Assembly (NCBI GenBank): GCA_964650975.1 | Contig: CAZYWA010000001.1 | Location: forward strand, 6,980-70,979 | Reading direction: 5' to 3' | From: an uncultured bacterium | Lineage (GTDB): Bacteria; JADJOY01 | DNA length: 64,000 bases | Notes under the pieces: generated by a model | What the model saw: the letters and a program-made list of their open reading frames with translations, nothing else | Databases searched by the model: none | Told to the model about the DNA's origin: nothing | Program-made: the position numbers and the translations under genes | Shown here: piece by piece, positions 30,628 through 34,110 of the stretch | How the letters are laid out: each line of letters opens with the position of its first letter | How positions within the stretch are numbered: the first letter of the stretch is position 1

Positions 30628-31698
30628 TCACTGCAACTGGTCGGCGTTGAACTGGTAGGACCCCGCGAGGTCGGCATCCTTGCGGGCCAGCATCCTGGCG
30701 AGGCTCACGATGACCTTGCACTGCTTCACGGTGGCGTCGTCCTGCATGCGGCCGTCGATCATCACGGTGCCGGTGCCGTCGCCCATCTGATCGATCACCT
30801 TCTTGGCGAAGAGCACGTCGTCGACCGGCGGGCTGAAGACGCGCTTGGCGATGGCGATCTGCTTGGGGTGGAGCGACCACGCGCCCACACAGCCCATCAG
30901 GAACGCGTTCCGGAACTGGTCTTCGCAGCCCAGGTCGTCGGTGATGTGGCCGAACGGGCCGTAGAAGGGCAGCGCGCCGGCGGCGACACAGGCATCGACC
31001 ATCTTCGAAATCGTGTAATGCCAGAGGTCTTGCTGTGCGACCGCGCGCGGTGCCGCGGGATCCTTGTCGTCCATGTCGGCGCGCACCAGGTAGCCGGGAT
31101 GCCCGCCGCCGACGCGCGTGGTCTTCATGCGCCGTGAGGCCGCGAGGTCCGCGGGTCCCAGGCTCACGCCTTGGAGCCGTGGGCTCGCGAAGCAGATTTC
31201 CTCGACGTTCTTCACACCCTCGGCGGTTTCCAGGATCGCGTGAATGAGGATCGCGCGCTTGGTCCCCGCTTTCGCTTCGAGCTGTGCGAGGAGCTGATCG
31301 ACGAAGTGGATGTCCCACGGGCCGGTGACCTTGGGGATCATGACGACTTCGAGCTTGTCGCCGATCTCGCTCACCAGCCGCGTCAGGTCGTCGAGGAACC
31401 ACGGGCTGTCGAGACTGTTCACACGGGTCCAGAGCTGCGTGTCGCCGAACTCGGTCGCCTTGGCGATCTTCACCAGGCCTTCGCGTGCCTCGATCTTGCG
31501 GTCGGCCTGGATCGCGTCCTCGAGGTTCCCGAGCAGGATGTCCACTTGCTTCGCGATCTCCGGCACCTTCGCCGCCATCTTGGCGTTCGACGGGTCGAAG
31601 AAATGGATCATCCGTGACGGCTTGAACGGAATTTCGCGCGGAGGCGGCGGCGCGCCGAGCGCCCGCGGCGCGAAGAAATCTCTGGGGTGGCGATGCAT
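30628..31698 (-). CDS. mcl: HpcH/HpaI-aldolase / CitE-family lyase that best resembles L-malyl-CoA/β-methylmalyl-CoA lyase.
   Basis: 356 aa, which is Mcl size. Motifs [37 protein letters not shown] and [17 protein letters not shown] match remembered Mcl sequences. RBS GGAG. Confidence 0.65.
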
Positions 31699-31710
31699 GG
31701 CGGGCTCCGT

Positions 31711-31929
31711 TCAGTAGAGCTTCACGACCTTCACGCCTTCGGGCGAAGCCTGCATGCACAGGTCGCAGAGCGTGCACTCGTCGAGGTTCTTCTCGACGGT
31801 CGTCACCGAGCTCTTGTCCGCCGTGAGCGCGAAGATCTTGACGGGGCACATCTCGACCAGCTTGGGCGCGAGCCCCGCGGTCTTGCGGACGACGTCGTCC
31901 TTCACATCTACCTGAATGAACATGGCCAT
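31711..31929 (-). CDS. Small FixX-like ferredoxin-like protein with a single [4Fe-4S] motif set.
   Basis: 72 aa. IQVDVK...LVEMCPVKIF...CTLCDLC parallels E. coli FixX (VNVDVK...LVKACPAGLY...CLECGTC). It sits between the ligase α-subunit gene and mcl on the same strand. Confidence 0.5.
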   Translation of the reverse strand: MAMFIQVDVKDDVVRKTAGLAPKLVEMCPVKIFALTADKSSVTTVEKNLDECTLCDLCMQASPEGVKVVKLY

Positions 31930-31952
31930 GGTCGTCTTCTCCTCGCGCTACA

Positions 31953-32861
31953 TCAAGCCTTCGCGCCCGCCAATCGCTCTTTGACCAGCCGCGGGATGTC
32001 GCCGATCTGGTCGGCCACCGAGATGCCGGCGGCGCGCATGCGGCGGATCTTGTCGGCCGGGGAGTCCATCTTCTTCTCGACCACCGTGCCGGCGTGGCCG
32101 AAGCTCATGCCGGGGATGTCGTCCATGAAGCGCCCCGACACGAACGCCACGATCGGCAGGCGGCTCTTGTTGTCGACCGACCATTTGGCGAGCTCGGCTT
32201 CCGACGAGCCGCCCGGTTCGGAATAGATGACGACCGCTTTGGTCTCGGGATCCGCCTCGAAGAACGGCATGAGGTCGGCGTAGGTCGAGCCGATCACCGG
32301 ATCGCCGCCGATCGAGATCGCGGTCGACTCGCCGAGCCCCGCGCCCGAGAGCGCGTTGCAGATCTCGGTGGTCATGCCGCCCGAGCGCGACATCACGCCC
32401 ACGATTCCCGGCTTGAACGCCTTGCGGCAGTCGACCGCCGGTCCGCCGAGACTGCCGAAGCGGCACACCTCGGGGACGATGAGGCCCAGGCAGTTGGGGC
32501 CGATCACCCGCGCGCCGCGCAGCTCGGCGTACTCGACCACCGCCGCCGCGTCGCGACGCGGGATGCCCTCGGTGATGATCACCAGGAGCTTGATCCCCGC
32601 GTCGATCGCTTCGTACGCCGCGTCCGGTGTGAACTGGTGCGGCACCGTGATCACGCTGCCGTCGACCCGCGTCTTCTTGGTGATCTCGCGCACCGTGTCG
32701 TAGACGGGGACGCCGTACACCTCGCGCCCGCCTTTGCCCGGCGTCACGCCGCCCACGATCTTCGAGCCGTACTCGAGGCACTCGCGCGTGAAGTTGAGCG
32801 CCTCGCGTCCGGTGATGCCCTGGACGATGAACTGGAAGTCCTTGTGAACCAGAACGGCCAT
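31953..32861 (-). CDS. Succinyl-CoA synthetase α-subunit-like (CoA-binding, phospho-His) protein, a candidate malate-CoA ligase α subunit.
   Basis: [34 protein letters not shown] and the phosphohistidine loop [20 protein letters not shown]. Confidence 0.75.
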
Positions 32862-32910
32862 GAGCTCTCCCTCGCTTACCGGCGTGCCCTCGATGACTGC
32901 AGTGCCTCGA

Positions 32911-34110
32911 TCACTTGCCGATCTTGTCGACCGCGCGCTGCGCCGCTTCGCTGATCGACACCGTGCGGTCGCAGTAGTCGATCCCGTACTTGGTGAGGAT
33001 CTTGGCCGCGTCCGCTTCCCACGCACCCGGCACGCGGAAGACCGCGATCTTGTCCTTGGGCTCGAATCCCAGCGCCTTGACACCCTTGATCACGCCGCGT
33101 GCCACGAGGTCGGCGCGGGTGTTCGACACCACGTTCGAGATCACCGCGATCTTGGTGACGCCGGGCTTCGAGAGCACCAGCTTGGTGAGCCGCTCGGTCT
33201 TGCCGACGCTCGGATTGCCGCCGATCGCCGCGTAGTTCGCGGGGCGGCCACCGGCCCGGCGCACCGCGTCGGTGATGGTGAGCGACCCGCCGCCGGCGCC
33301 GATCACCAGGCCGATGTTGCCGTCGAACTCGACCACCGGTCCCGCGACGCCGCGCGGGTCCTCGGCGTCGATCGCGGCGCCTTCCATCTCGAACGCGGTC
33401 GGCTCGCGCACCAGACGCTTGTCGTCGAGGGCGATGCCCAGCTCCTCGAGCAGCGCCTTGTTGCGTGCGCGGCCCTCGACCTCCATGTCCATGTAGCAGT
33501 CGACGGCCACGAACTTGCCGTCGTCGGCACGCACCAGCCGCGAGACGTTGGCCTGGGTGAGGTCGTGCTTGAGGAAGAGCTGGGCGAGACGGGCGATCAC
33601 GTTGGTGAGCGCCGAGACGTCGCCGCTCGGGGCCCCGAGGTCCGACGCCAGCTCCTTCGCGAGATAGGTCGAGAACGGGAAGAGCGCCGAGAAATGACGG
33701 CGGAACACCTTGCCGGGCTCGGTGTCCGCGAGGTCCTCGACGTTGCCGGCCTGCGCCGCGCCGATCATCACCGGCCGCTTGGCGACCCCGTCGTAGGTGA
33801 TCGCGAGGCTGTAGGTGGCGGCGCTCACATTCGCCGCTTTCTCGACCAGCACTCCTTTGGGCTTGCGTCCACCGTCGTCGAGGGCCAAGAGCTCGGTGGC
33901 GGCCGTGGCCGCCTCGGCCGCGCTTCCGGCGGGCTTGTGGGCCGTGGTTTGCAGCGAGGGCGACAGCACCTGCGCCTTCACCACCACCGCACCGCCCAGC
34001 TCCTTCGCCACTCGCTCCGCGTCCGCGGCCGTGGCCGCCGGGCTGCCCTCGACGGTCGGGATGCCGTTTTTCTTGAGGATTTTCTTGGACTCGAATTCGT
34101 AGAAGCGCAT
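32911..34110 (-). CDS. Succinyl-CoA synthetase β-subunit-like (ATP-grasp) protein with a divergent nucleotide-binding loop, a candidate malate-CoA ligase β subunit.
   Basis: N-terminus MRFYEFESKKILKKNGIP and C-terminal ligase-CoA domain (FDGNIGLVIGAGGGSL...ANYAAIGGN). The region equivalent to VVKCQVHAGGRGKAGG instead reads VVKAQVLSPSLQTTAHKPAG. Confidence 0.65.
   Translation of the reverse strand: MRFYEFESKKILKKNGIPTVEGSPAATAADAERVAKELGGAVVVKAQVLSPSLQTTAHKPAGSAAEAATAATELLALDDGGRKPKGVLVEKAANVSAATYSLAITYDGVAKRPVMIGAAQAGNVEDLADTEPGKVFRRHFSALFPFSTYLAKELASDLGAPSGDVSALTNVIARLAQLFLKHDLTQANVSRLVRADDGKFVAVDCYMDMEVEGRARNKALLEELGIALDDKRLVREPTAFEMEGAAIDAEDPRGVAGPVVEFDGNIGLVIGAGGGSLTITDAVRRAGGRPANYAAIGGNPSVGKTERLTKLVLSKPGVTKIAVISNVVSNTRADLVARGVIKGVKALGFEPKDKIAVFRVPGAWEADAAKILTKYGIDYCDRTVSISEAAQRAVDKIGK

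What the first reader, a model, noticed from the sequence alone, without database searches (positions are those of the whole stretch)
30628..34110. Four-gene operon: SucCD-like ligase pair, FixX-like ferredoxin, malyl-CoA-lyase-like gene
Four co-directional minus-strand genes are separated by only about 10-50 nt: a SucC-like ATP-grasp β subunit (32911-34110), a SucD-like α subunit with the phospho-His loop GHAG (31953-32861), a 72 aa FixX-like single-cluster ferredoxin (31711-31929), and an Mcl-sized HpcH/CitE-family lyase (30628-31698). Established knowledge: malate thiokinase (MtkAB) plus malyl-CoA lyase form the glyoxylate/acetyl-CoA interconversion module of the serine cycle and related pathways. 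An embedded FixX-type ferredoxin is not part of any described Mtk/Mcl, CitE or citryl-CoA module as far as I know. Inference: this is a variant C2-C4 CoA-ester ligase/lyase module, possibly redox-coupled or acting on a different hydroxy-acid such as citramalate or β-methylmalate. An AGXT-type aminotransferase (serine-glyoxylate-like) lies 12 kb away at 18243-19355, but no hydroxypyruvate reductase or glycerate kinase is present, so a complete serine cycle is not supported.
Basis: partly seen in the sequence, partly recalled or inferred. Interest (0 to 1): 0.65.

Follow-up and report, generated by a model that had tools for sequence, protein, structure and literature searches.

The report
Ligase-lyase operon with iron-sulfur partner
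This is a real four-gene operon, found so far only in uncultured bacteria, that pairs a malyl-CoA lyase with a very divergent succinyl-CoA-synthetase-like enzyme and a tiny iron-sulfur protein, a partner not known for this enzyme superfamily.

Summary
In detail: four minus-strand genes sit 49, 23 and 12 nt apart. The lyase is a Chloroflexus-type malyl-CoA/beta-methylmalyl-CoA/citramalyl-CoA lyase, 63% identical to PDB 4L7Z, and is not CitE. The ligase pair is neither canonical SucCD nor MtkAB. Its beta subunit scores 156 bits against a SucC cut-off of 370, and 119 bits against an MtkA cut-off of 604. Its C-terminal domain is closest to citryl-CoA synthetase. The 72-aa ORF is a conserved single-cluster half-ferredoxin (CP...CxxCxxC, four invariant Cys, dN/dS about 0.28). 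It matches no Pfam or NCBIfam family and no FixX model. Relatives occur in 288 species-level genomes; the 80 best I inspected are all MAGs (Binatia, Myxococcota, Chloroflexota). In 69 of 71 informative loci the small gene directly follows alpha, and 52 of 59 loci carry the Mcl. No redox enzyme is a conserved neighbour. Best reading: a three-component malate (or related hydroxy-acid)-CoA ligase feeds or drains Mcl, with the Fe-S protein as a dedicated accessory subunit rather than a free electron carrier. One oddity remains: the beta ATP-grasp nucleotide motifs have drifted (E197->N, N199->S, glycine loop lost), so ATP dependence cannot be assumed. I class it as a new variant of a known kind.

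The parts
32911..34110 (-). Beta subunit of a divergent SCS/CCS-type acid-CoA ligase (399 aa): an ATP-grasp N-domain and an acid-binding C-domain
   Evidence: Pfam ATP-grasp_2 E 1.4e-25. NCBIfam SucC 156 bits (cut-off 370) and MtkA 119 bits (cut-off 604). The best PDB match is citryl-CoA synthetase large subunit 6HXQ_B at 120 bits. AF2 pLDDT is 86.5 and the fold matches SucC and CcsA. The canonical glycine loop, E197 and N199 are not conserved.
31953..32861 (-). Alpha subunit (302 aa): CoA-binding domain and phosphohistidine loop (SFGHAG)
   Evidence: Pfam CoA_binding and Ligase_CoA. NCBIfam SucD 295 bits (cut-off 336). Thermus SucD 3UFX_A scores 268 bits. GHAG, SRSGGMT and the Glu of SEPGG are conserved. 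There is a family-specific 6-aa insertion, [11 protein letters not shown].
31711..31929 (-). 72-aa single-cluster [4Fe-4S]-type half-ferredoxin, the proposed third (accessory) subunit of the ligase
   Evidence: C28-P29, C52, C55 and C58 are invariant in 22 of 22 diverse homologues, and the second CP is replaced by S62-P63. There are 536 homologue clusters at 69-96% identity. It lies directly after alpha in 69 of 71 loci. dN/dS is 0.28. AF2 predicts a ferredoxin fold at pLDDT 70.5. No family passes a cut-off, and NCBI names it 'hypothetical protein'.
30628..31698 (-). Chloroflexus-type (S)-malyl-CoA/beta-methylmalyl-CoA/(S)-citramalyl-CoA lyase (Mcl, 356 aa)
   Evidence: PDB 4L7Z/4L80 E 3.4e-147, with 63% identity over 342 residues. 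Those entries are the trifunctional C. aurantiacus MCL (PMC3832036). Pfam HpcH_HpaI.
34111..34390 (.). Divergent intergenic region between the beta gene and a plus-strand sulfotransferase gene; presumed promoter region of the operon
   Evidence: Position only. The scan found no sigma-70 consensus site in this stretch and there is no Rfam match, so this part is inferred.

Best explanation
The operon encodes a three-component acid-CoA ligase plus its cognate lyase. The ligase consists of beta, alpha and a small [4Fe-4S] protein. Beta and alpha form an SCS/CCS-type enzyme that interconverts a 2-hydroxy-dicarboxylate, most likely (S)-malate, and its CoA thioester through the alpha-subunit phosphohistidine. 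The Chloroflexus-type Mcl interconverts malyl-CoA with acetyl-CoA plus glyoxylate. Together they would work as a split 'malate lyase', analogous to citryl-CoA synthetase plus citryl-CoA lyase. They could run toward glyoxylate and acetyl-CoA (serine-cycle direction), or toward malate with conservation of the thioester energy (glyoxylate assimilation, ethylmalonyl-CoA-type direction). The 72-aa protein is a dedicated partner of the alpha subunit, translated with it. Its single cluster would be structural or regulatory (for example redox or O2 sensing, or assembly), not a link in an electron-transfer chain.

Shown: gene content, gene order, conservation, family placement, invariant Cys ligands and purifying selection.

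Inferred: substrate identity, direction, physical association of the small protein, and actual cluster binding.
For: The lyase is 63% identical to the characterised trifunctional MCL. Alpha keeps every catalytic element of the phosphohistidine mechanism. The acid-binding C-domain of beta is very strongly conserved within the family (mean entropy 0.47 bits against 1.26 for the N-domain). It resembles citryl-CoA synthetase: 40.5% identity, a shared NTR loop and a shared insertion. That fits a citrate-like hydroxy-acid substrate rather than succinate. Beta-alpha-small is a fixed unit in 68-69 of 71 loci across at least three phyla, with alpha-to-small gaps of -1 to 31 nt. The same holds for homologues of the small protein at only 50% identity. 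Mcl lies within about 4 kb in 52 of 59 loci. No oxidoreductase is a conserved neighbour. Co-clustering of mtkAB with mcl is the established pattern in serine-cycle methylotrophs, and Binatota genomes have been annotated as carrying mtkAB plus mcl.
Against: There is no biochemical evidence. Beta is only 26% identical to an MtkA-class sequence and fails the MtkA model. The window beta lacks the GGRGKAGG loop and carries N and S at the E197 and N199 positions, and 166 of 184 family members lack both canonical motifs. Classical ATP-driven ligation is therefore questionable. Many related loci also carry a CitE-like paralogue, and Dehalococcoidia loci carry a class-III CoA-transferase, either of which could make or consume malyl-CoA without the ligase. 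No hydroxypyruvate reductase, glycerate kinase or other serine-cycle gene is in the window. The small-protein model is only of medium confidence, and its PDB matches are not significant.
Confidence: 0.55

Rival explanations
1. The module has the same architecture but a different substrate. The ligase activates citramalate, beta-methylmalate, mesaconate-derived acids or itaconate, and Mcl cleaves (S)-citramalyl-CoA or beta-methylmalyl-CoA. This would be a 3-hydroxypropionate-bicycle-like or methylaspartate-like C5 branch rather than malate/malyl-CoA.
For: The Chloroflexus enzyme is trifunctional, acting on malyl-, beta-methylmalyl- and citramalyl-CoA. The beta acid-binding loop resembles that of the citrate-activating CcsA. 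Dehalococcoidia loci carry a fused class-III CoA-transferase whose best, sub-threshold match is succinyl-CoA:mesaconate CoA-transferase. A second CitE-like lyase is present in 33 of 59 loci.
Against: No mesaconyl-CoA hydratase or other C5-branch enzyme is a conserved neighbour, and none is in the window. Sequence alone cannot separate malate from citramalate specificity.
Confidence: 0.15
2. The nucleotide site of beta is no longer functional. The enzyme would then work without ATP. One option is a phosphate-dependent phospho-enzyme CoA transferase (for example succinyl-CoA plus malate giving succinate plus malyl-CoA, the job SmtAB does in Chloroflexus). Another is a malyl-CoA-consuming enzyme.
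For: The window beta has N at the E197 position, S at N199 and no glycine-rich phosphate loop. Of 184 family members, 166 lack both motifs, while a basal minority (Dehalococcoidia, some Binatia) keep them. The N-domain evolves much faster than the C-domain: 56% against 82% identity to the window protein. Alpha retains the complete phosphohistidine, phosphate and CoA machinery. From my own knowledge, E197beta is required for phosphorylation of the histidine by ATP but not by succinyl-CoA plus Pi. An E197betaA mutant structure, 1JLL, is in the PDB.
Against: K46, E99 and D213 equivalents are retained. Most family members have the conservative E197D change (143 of 184). The ATP-grasp domain is predicted to be fully folded, with pLDDT mostly above 90. 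A dead domain of 235 residues would be expected to decay or be lost. I know of no precedent for such an SCS-derived transferase.
Confidence: 0.12
3. The ligase is simply a specialised succinyl-CoA synthetase paralogue. It would serve the end of an ethylmalonyl-CoA or propionyl-CoA route, or recharge a CoA-transferase. It would sit next to Mcl because of shared pathway membership, not a shared intermediate.
For: The best-scoring curated models are SucC and SucD, and alpha is about 50% identical to Thermus SucD. Some related loci carry a methylmalonyl/ethylmalonyl-CoA-mutase-like gene and acyl-CoA dehydrogenases beside the module. A class-III CoA-transferase sits in the Dehalococcoidia loci.
Against: Both subunits fall below the equivalog cut-offs, beta by a factor of more than two. 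A bona fide MtkA-class sequence still scores 556 bits on the SucC model, against 156 for this beta. The acid-binding loop differs from the SucC GGI(V)R motif and is invariant within the family. Apart from alpha and beta themselves, the lyases are the only widely conserved neighbours of the small gene.
Confidence: 0.1
4. The small protein is an ordinary soluble ferredoxin that happens to be co-transcribed. It would serve another enzyme, for example the two-subunit 2-oxoacid:acceptor oxidoreductase at 19655-22647.
For: There are weak matches to the OGOR delta subunit and other ferredoxins (E about 0.002-0.01). An OFOR lies about 9 kb away in the window and about 3 kb from the operon in the closest relative L043.
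Against: An OFOR is present in only one of 80 related loci, whereas alpha directly precedes the small gene in 69 of 71. It has one cluster, not two. Its invariant N-terminus MAMFI and 70-80% identity across phyla are unusual for a generic carrier.
Confidence: 0.06

Closest known systems
Malate thiokinase MtkAB plus malyl-CoA lyase Mcl (serine cycle, e.g. Methylorubrum extorquens)
   Same: A two-subunit SCS-type ligase is encoded next to a malyl-CoA lyase, and the predicted chemistry is malate <-> malyl-CoA <-> acetyl-CoA + glyoxylate.
   Different: Beta is 26% identical to an MtkA-class sequence and scores 119 bits on NF010647 against a cut-off of 604. The lyase is of the Chloroflexus type, not the proteobacterial type: 493 bits against 197 bits. 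A third Fe-S protein is present. Canonical ATP-grasp motifs are missing. No other serine-cycle genes are nearby.
Citryl-CoA synthetase CcsAB plus citryl-CoA lyase (Hydrogenobacter thermophilus; PDB 6HXQ) and ATP-citrate lyase
   Same: The logic is the same: an SCS-like ligase makes a hydroxy-acyl-CoA that a separate lyase cleaves to acetyl-CoA plus an oxo-acid. CcsA is the best PDB match for beta. The two share an insertion (REPT..E..ID..D.RG) and the NTR acid-binding loop, and the C-domain is 40.5% identical.
   Different: Here the lyase is a CitE/HpcH-fold enzyme, not a citrate-synthase-fold Ccl. Alpha is 302 aa and resembles SucD more than CcsB: 268 against 196 bits, and the CcsB chain is 353 aa. 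CcsA keeps the GKRGKAG and EINPL motifs that the window beta lacks. No Fe-S protein is described for CCS or ACL, to my knowledge.
Succinyl-CoA synthetase SucCD
   Same: Overall fold, heteromeric architecture, phosphohistidine loop and CoA-binding domain.
   Different: Both subunits are below the equivalog cut-offs. The acid-binding loop and the nucleotide motifs differ. The module is linked to Mcl and an Fe-S protein rather than to TCA-cycle genes.
Chloroflexus aurantiacus trifunctional malyl-CoA lyase with SmtAB CoA-transferase (3-hydroxypropionate bi-cycle)
   Same: The lyase is a close homologue (63% identity). Dehalococcoidia versions of the locus also carry a class-III CoA-transferase.
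   Different: In the window, malyl-CoA would be made or used by an SCS-like enzyme rather than by SmtAB. No other bi-cycle genes are present.
Single-cluster ferredoxin-like domains (N-terminal domain of LctC/EtfA in 7QH2; archaeal RNA polymerase subunit D; FixX)
   Same: A ferredoxin fold that has kept one of the two ancestral [4Fe-4S] sites (a CP from motif 1 plus CxxCxxC from motif 2).
   Different: The matches are not significant (E 0.013-0.3 by sequence, at least 0.02 by fold). It is a free-standing 72-aa protein with its own invariant features. No FixX or ETF context exists.

Membership tests
Succinate-CoA ligase SucCD | Beta subunit reaches the NCBIfam equivalog score (NF001913, cut-off 370) | tested here: not met
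   155.9 bits. For comparison, an MtkA-class sequence scores 556 bits on the same model.
Succinate-CoA ligase SucCD | Alpha subunit reaches the NCBIfam equivalog score (NF004230, cut-off 336) | tested here: not met
   295.2 bits, close to but below the cut-off.
Succinate-CoA ligase SucCD | Phosphohistidine loop GHAG, the site-I Glu and the phosphate-binding SRSG motif in alpha | tested here: met
   SFGHAG, SEPGG and SRSGGMT are conserved in the window protein and across the family.
Succinate-CoA ligase SucCD | Canonical ATP-grasp nucleotide site in beta (K46, G52-G58 loop, E99, E197, N199, D213; E. coli numbering) | tested here: not met
   K, E99 and D213 are kept. The loop is replaced by SPS-LQTTAH, E197 by N and N199 by S. 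Of 184 family members, 166 lack both motifs.
Malate-CoA ligase MtkAB | Beta subunit reaches the NCBIfam equivalog score (NF010647, cut-off 604) | tested here: not met
   118.6 bits. It is 26% identical to a sequence that itself scores 770 bits on that model.
Malate-CoA ligase MtkAB | Genomic association with a malyl-CoA lyase gene | tested here: met
   Mcl is in the same operon in the window and within the locus in 52 of 59 relatives.
Malate-CoA ligase MtkAB | ATP- and CoA-dependent formation of malyl-CoA from malate | not testable with these tools
   Needs an enzyme assay.
Citryl-CoA synthetase CcsAB | Sequence affinity of the large subunit to CcsA | tested here: inconclusive
   It is the best PDB hit, but only at 120 bits against 111 for Thermus SucC. 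The shared insertion and the 40.5% C-domain identity favour affinity. No curated CcsA model was available.
Citryl-CoA synthetase CcsAB | Works with a citrate-synthase-fold citryl-CoA lyase | tested here: not met
   The associated lyase is an HpcH/CitE-fold Mcl.
Malyl-CoA lyase, Chloroflexus type (MCLC) | Full-length close homology to the characterised enzyme (PDB 4L7Z/4L80) | tested here: met
   E 3.4e-147, with 63% identity over 342 of 356 residues. The identity of the PDB entries was confirmed in PMC3832036.
Malyl-CoA lyase, Chloroflexus type (MCLC) | Cleavage or condensation activity with malyl-, beta-methylmalyl- and citramalyl-CoA | not testable with these tools
   Needs an enzyme assay.
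Citrate lyase beta subunit CitE | Reaches TIGR01588 (cut-off 443.4) | tested here: not met
   104.1 bits.
FixX-type ferredoxin-like protein | Detectable homology to FixX, or an ETF (fixABC) gene context | tested here: not met
   No FixX or ETF family appears among the Pfam and NCBIfam hits at E <= 0.01. No ETF genes lie in the window or in the 80 related loci. I could not confirm that a FixX-specific model exists in these libraries.
Bacterial 2x[4Fe-4S] ferredoxin (Fer4) | Two CxxCxxCxxxCP motifs and a Pfam Fer4-family score above the cut-off | tested here: not met
   Only one composite site is present (C28-P plus C52, C55, C58), and the second CP is S62-P63. Fer4_7 scores 20.9 bits against a cut-off of 27.
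[4Fe-4S] cluster-binding protein (general) | Four conserved Cys in ferredoxin spacing on a ferredoxin fold | tested here: met
   The four Cys are invariant. AF2 predicts a beta-alpha-beta-beta-alpha-beta fold, and the fold hits are all ferredoxin domains of Fe-S enzymes, though not significant. Actual cluster binding cannot be tested here.

The most novel reading that the evidence does not exclude
Beta, alpha and the 72-aa protein form a previously unrecognised three-subunit branch of the SCS/CCS/ACL superfamily, the first with an integral [4Fe-4S] subunit. In most lineages, including this one, the ATP-grasp nucleotide site has drifted. The enzyme may therefore no longer be a classical ATP-driven ligase. 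It could be a redox- or O2-gated enzyme, or a phosphate-dependent phospho-enzyme, that makes or consumes malyl-CoA for a Chloroflexus-type Mcl. That would amount to an undescribed route of glyoxylate/C2-C4 metabolism in abundant uncultured soil and marine bacteria (Binatia, Myxococcota, Chloroflexota).
Probability: 0.25. Interest if true: 0.8.

Novelty: new variant of a known kind. Interest (0 to 1): 0.6.

Why it matters
Ligase-plus-lyase pairs such as MtkAB/Mcl and CcsAB/Ccl are the entry and exit points of the serine cycle, the reverse glyoxylate shunt and the ancestral ATP-citrate-lyase reaction. They are also key parts for synthetic carbon-conserving pathways.

This clade is present in at least 288 species-level genomes of lineages that are widespread in soils and sediments but uncultured. 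Metagenomic surveys annotate such genes simply as sucCD or mtkAB.

If the Fe-S protein really is a subunit, it would be the first cofactor-bearing accessory subunit in this superfamily. It would imply a redox or oxygen input into a step regarded as purely ATP-driven.

If the nucleotide site is really non-canonical, pathway reconstructions and ATP budgets for these organisms would need revision. That includes the methylotrophy inferred for Binatota.

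Tried and rejected
1. 'FixX-like'. No FixX or ETF family appeared in Pfam or NCBIfam, and there is no ETF context. I rejected it as a family assignment and kept only 'single-cluster ferredoxin-like'.

2. The small protein as ferredoxin for the nearby OFOR. An OFOR is found in only one of 80 related loci. Rejected as the main role.

3. Natural alpha-small fusions as Rosetta-stone evidence. The long hits in the representative library (P0256, P0389, P0340, P0359, P0362) show Arg-rich, frame-shifted linkers and are most likely read-through or frameshift artefacts. I did not use them as evidence of fusion, only of adjacency.

4. Other conserved neighbours. Clustering all ORFs of the 80 loci gave only alpha, beta and the lyases as widely shared genes. 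EF-G, a luciferase-like monooxygenase and others are lineage-specific synteny.

5. Structure search of the small protein. No PDB match was significant (best E 0.02), so it gives fold class only.

6. Regulatory RNA, tRNA, promoter and terminator scans. There were no Rfam or tRNA hits in the window. There was no sigma-70 site. The one terminator-like hit lies on the wrong strand, inside the beta gene.

7. Literature. Seven full-text searches found no description of an Fe-S partner of an Mtk-, SCS- or CCS-type ligase, and no study of this clade. The only relevant paper is the Binatota survey, which lists mtkAB and mcl.

8. Cultured representatives. The 80 best genome loci are all MAGs. I could not inspect the other 208.

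9. A complex prediction for alpha plus the small protein was not attempted. The structure tool takes single chains from the window only and returns no interface metrics.

10. Caveat on references. MtkA was validated against its NCBIfam equivalog (770 bits). The E. coli sequences were not validated separately, but they agree at all motif positions with the PDB-derived Thermus and Hydrogenobacter sequences.

Full report
**1. Observation**

- Beta: 32911-34110, 399 aa, starting MRFYEFESKK.
- Alpha: 31953-32861, 302 aa, containing SFGHAG.
- Small ORF: 31711-31929, 72 aa.
- Lyase: 30628-31698, 356 aa.

The spacers are 49, 23 and 12 nt. GGAG motifs lie 8-12 nt upstream of the starts of the small gene and the lyase gene. 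All four genes have the third-position GC (0.87-0.92) typical of real genes in this window, which averages roughly 69% GC. Pfam gives ATP-grasp_2, CoA_binding plus Ligase_CoA, a sub-threshold Fer4_7 match, and HpcH_HpaI. The operon is bounded upstream by a divergent sulfotransferase gene (34391-35509). Downstream, after a 282-nt gap, lies an unrelated 637-aa protein with no family match.

**2. The lyase**

Its best solved relatives are PDB 4L7Z/4L80 (E 3.4e-147, 63% identity over 342 residues) and the Roseiflexus enzyme 6KIN. 4L7Z/4L80 is the trifunctional Chloroflexus aurantiacus malyl-CoA/beta-methylmalyl-CoA/citramalyl-CoA lyase (PMC3832036). The proteobacterial Mcl (4L9Y, 5UGR) scores far lower, at 197 and 174 bits. 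CitE-like chains score 69 bits or less. The citE equivalog is missed by a wide margin: 104 bits against a cut-off of 443.

**3. The ligase**

Alpha is a well-conserved SucD-type subunit.
- It scores 295 bits on NF004230 (cut-off 336) and is about 50% identical to Thermus SucD.
- It keeps the phosphohistidine loop, the site-I glutamate and the phosphate-binding SRSG motif.
- It has a family-specific six-residue insertion, [11 protein letters not shown].

Beta is very divergent.
- It scores 156 bits on the SucC equivalog (cut-off 370) and 119 bits on the MtkA equivalog (cut-off 604).
- As a control, an MtkA-class sequence scores 770 bits on the MtkA model and still 556 bits on the SucC model. 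It is only 26% identical to the window beta.
- The best PDB match is the citryl-CoA synthetase large subunit 6HXQ_B, at 120 bits against 111 for Thermus SucC.
- The C-terminal, acid-binding domain is 40.5% identical to CcsA. The figures for E. coli SucC and MtkA are 31% and 29%.
- Beta shares with CcsA an insertion (REPT..E..ID..D.RG) and the NTR version of the acid-binding loop.
- The AF2 model is confident (pLDDT 86.5) and superposes on SucC, CcsA and AclB chains.

The pair is therefore a deep-branching member of the SCS/CCS/ACL superfamily. It is neither canonical SucCD nor MtkAB.

**4. An unexpected feature of beta**

I aligned 184 family members with reference sequences. The C-domain is almost frozen, with mean column entropy of 0.47 bits and 82% mean identity to the window protein. 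The ATP-grasp N-domain evolves much faster (1.26 bits, 56%).

At the positions that bind nucleotide and Mg in E. coli SucC, the window protein shows the following.
- It keeps K46, E99 and D213.
- It has SPS-LQTTAH in place of the GGRGKAGG loop.
- It has N in place of E197.
- It has S in place of N199.

Of the 184 members, 166 lack both the E/N pair and the glycine loop. Nine keep both. These include the Dehalococcoidia loci L076 and L083 and the Binatia locus L018.

From my own knowledge, E197beta is needed for ATP-dependent phosphorylation of the catalytic histidine. An E197betaA mutant structure, 1JLL, appears. Most family members carry the milder E197D change (143 of 184). The domain is predicted to be well folded. 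I therefore treat loss of the nucleotide site as an open possibility, not a conclusion.

**5. The small protein**

It has 536 homologue clusters at 69-96% identity in the large protein collection. A profile search of 1.84 billion representatives finds 272 clusters at E <= 0.001. C28-P29, C52, C55, C58 and the N-terminus MAMFI are invariant. The position of the second canonical CP is S62-P63.

This is the pattern of a two-cluster ferredoxin that has kept one composite [4Fe-4S] site. AF2 gives a ferredoxin-type fold at medium confidence (pLDDT 70.5). Foldseek returns only ferredoxin domains of Fe-S enzymes, none of them significant (best E 0.02). The best sequence match in the PDB is the single-cluster N-terminal domain of LctC, at E 0.013.

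No Pfam or NCBIfam family passes its cut-off. No FixX or ETF model appears. NCBI records call the protein 'hypothetical protein', and JGI gives it a generic COG1146 name. The median dN/dS against 63 orthologues is 0.28, so the ORF is translated and constrained.

**6. Comparative context**

A scan of one genome per species found 288 genomes that encode the small protein. The 80 best loci are all metagenome-assembled genomes from Binatia, Myxococcota (Polyangiales, 'Myxococcales', 'Deltaproteobacteria'), Dehalococcoidia/Chloroflexota and a few others.
- Among 71 loci with enough upstream sequence, alpha lies directly upstream of the small gene in 69, and beta lies upstream on the same strand in 68.
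- The alpha-stop to small-start distance is -1 to 31 nt (median 15) in 77 loci. The beta-to-alpha distance has a median of 11 nt.
- Two homologues of the small protein at only about 50% identity also sit 0-2 nt after an alpha gene. One of them is followed by mcl.
- An Mcl at 60% identity or more is present in 52 of 59 loci with room for it.
- The commonest order is mcl, CitE-like paralogue, beta, alpha, small. The window order (beta, alpha, small, mcl) recurs in L014, L031 and L043.
- A second CitE-like protein of about 288 aa, of unknown specificity, is present in 33 of 59 loci but not in the window. Its closest solved relatives are the proteobacterial Mcl chains, and it is below all equivalog cut-offs.
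- Clustering all ORFs of the 80 loci found no other widely conserved neighbour and no oxidoreductase.
- Dehalococcoidia loci add a fused class-III CoA-transferase. Its best match, below threshold, is succinyl-CoA:mesaconate CoA-transferase.
- There are three exceptions: L018 (small gene divergent from beta-alpha), L016 (truncated alpha) and L028 (small gene after the CitE-like gene, with no ligase within 8 kb).

**7. Window context**

Nothing else in the 64 kb points to a complete serine cycle.

The aminotransferase at 18243-19355 is a generic class-V enzyme. Its best, sub-threshold match is aspartate-glyoxylate aminotransferase BhcA, at 189 bits against a cut-off of 650. The genes at 19655-22647 encode a two-subunit 2-oxoacid:acceptor oxidoreductase. 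Both are syntenic only in the closest relative, L043, so they are not conserved partners of the module.

**8. Mechanism**

The best-supported reading has several parts.
- Beta and alpha form an SCS/CCS-type enzyme. It interconverts a citrate-like 2-hydroxy-dicarboxylate, most plausibly (S)-malate, with its CoA ester through the alpha phosphohistidine.
- Mcl interconverts that ester with acetyl-CoA and glyoxylate. The arrangement is formally parallel to CcsAB plus Ccl.
- The small protein is made together with alpha and acts as a dedicated accessory subunit.
- Because no redox enzyme is conserved alongside it, its cluster is more likely structural or regulatory than part of an electron path.

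Shown: gene order, conservation, family placement, the Cys pattern and purifying selection.

Inferred: substrate, direction, complex formation and cluster binding.

Rival readings, with their tests, are given separately. They are a C5 substrate such as citramalate, an ATP-independent phospho-enzyme function, a specialised succinyl-CoA synthetase, and a free ferredoxin.

**9. Comparison and novelty**

The module works like MtkAB/Mcl and like CcsAB/Ccl, but it fails the membership tests for SucCD, MtkAB, CitE and FixX. It passes only the test for Chloroflexus-type Mcl.

The one relevant paper I found is a survey that lists mtkAB and mcl in Binatota genomes as serine-cycle genes, without noting a third component. 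Six other full-text searches found nothing on an Fe-S partner of such ligases.

I therefore class it as a new variant of a known kind: a known type of ligase/lyase module that carries an undescribed, tightly linked Fe-S component and atypical nucleotide-site motifs, in lineages without cultured representatives among the loci examined.

**10. Verdict**

Interest is 0.6. The main uncertainty is biochemical: substrate, ATP dependence and the role of the Fe-S protein. It could be settled with a few recombinant-protein experiments.

Noticed in passing
window 19655-22647 (+) and 18243-19355 (+): A two-subunit 2-oxoacid:acceptor oxidoreductase (alpha 652 aa, 666 bits on TIGR03710; beta 345 aa) lies next to a class-V aminotransferase. 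The aminotransferase's best, sub-threshold match is aspartate-glyoxylate aminotransferase BhcA. Both are syntenic with the operon only in the closest relative, L043.
   Followed up: partly
L063:4986-5834 and 32 other related loci (absent from the window): A second CitE-like protein of about 288 aa usually sits between mcl and the beta gene. It is about 25% identical to Mcl, and its best PDB hits are the proteobacterial Mcl chains 5UGR and 4L9Y. It is below all NCBIfam cut-offs. It could be a malyl-CoA thioesterase-like enzyme or a second lyase.
   Followed up: partly
L076:3375-5846 (-), Dehalococcoidia loci: An 823-aa protein with two class-III CoA-transferase domains lies between mcl and the ligase genes. 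Its best, sub-threshold match is succinyl-CoA:mesaconate CoA-transferase.
   Followed up: partly
L028:7083-8216: In one Deltaproteobacteria MAG the small Fe-S gene follows the CitE-like gene directly, with no alpha or beta gene within 8 kb. This is the only locus in which the small gene is separated from the ligase.
   Followed up: partly
L013 and L016 (same MAG, MFD01476.bin.1.163): The MAG carries two copies of the small gene: one after a complete beta-alpha pair, and one after a truncated alpha with no beta.
   Followed up: no
proteins P0256, P0389, P0340, P0359, P0362 (representative library): These apparent alpha-small 'fusion' proteins have Arg-rich, out-of-frame-looking linkers. They are probably frameshift or read-through artefacts of assemblies, not true fusions.
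   Followed up: partly
window 32911-34110, beta residues 137-154: The motif RRHFSAL.PFSDY.AKEL in the ATP-grasp domain is nearly invariant within the family but absent from SucC, MtkA and CcsA. It is a candidate family-specific interface or ligand site.
   Followed up: no
window 14325-16665 (+): A complete panB-panC-panD (pantothenate biosynthesis) cluster.
   Followed up: no
window 214-3229 (+): A PrkA serine protein kinase and DUF444 gene pair (yeaG/yeaH-like). The PrkA Pfam match begins at profile position 87 of 358, so the gene's start may be mis-set or its N-terminus shortened.
   Followed up: no
window 28432-30345 (-), 23475-25355 (+), 40258-42117 (-), 10880-12550 (-): Four proteins of 556-637 aa have no Pfam match, and the two of them that were also scanned against NCBIfam (28432-30345 and 23475-25355) have none there. 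The 637-aa one directly downstream of the operon is conserved at 76% identity in L043.
   Followed up: no
window 43872-45422 (-) and 51087-52142 (-): An HTTM-domain protein (vitamin-K-carboxylase-like) and a KshA-like Rieske oxygenase. They are unrelated to the operon.
   Followed up: no
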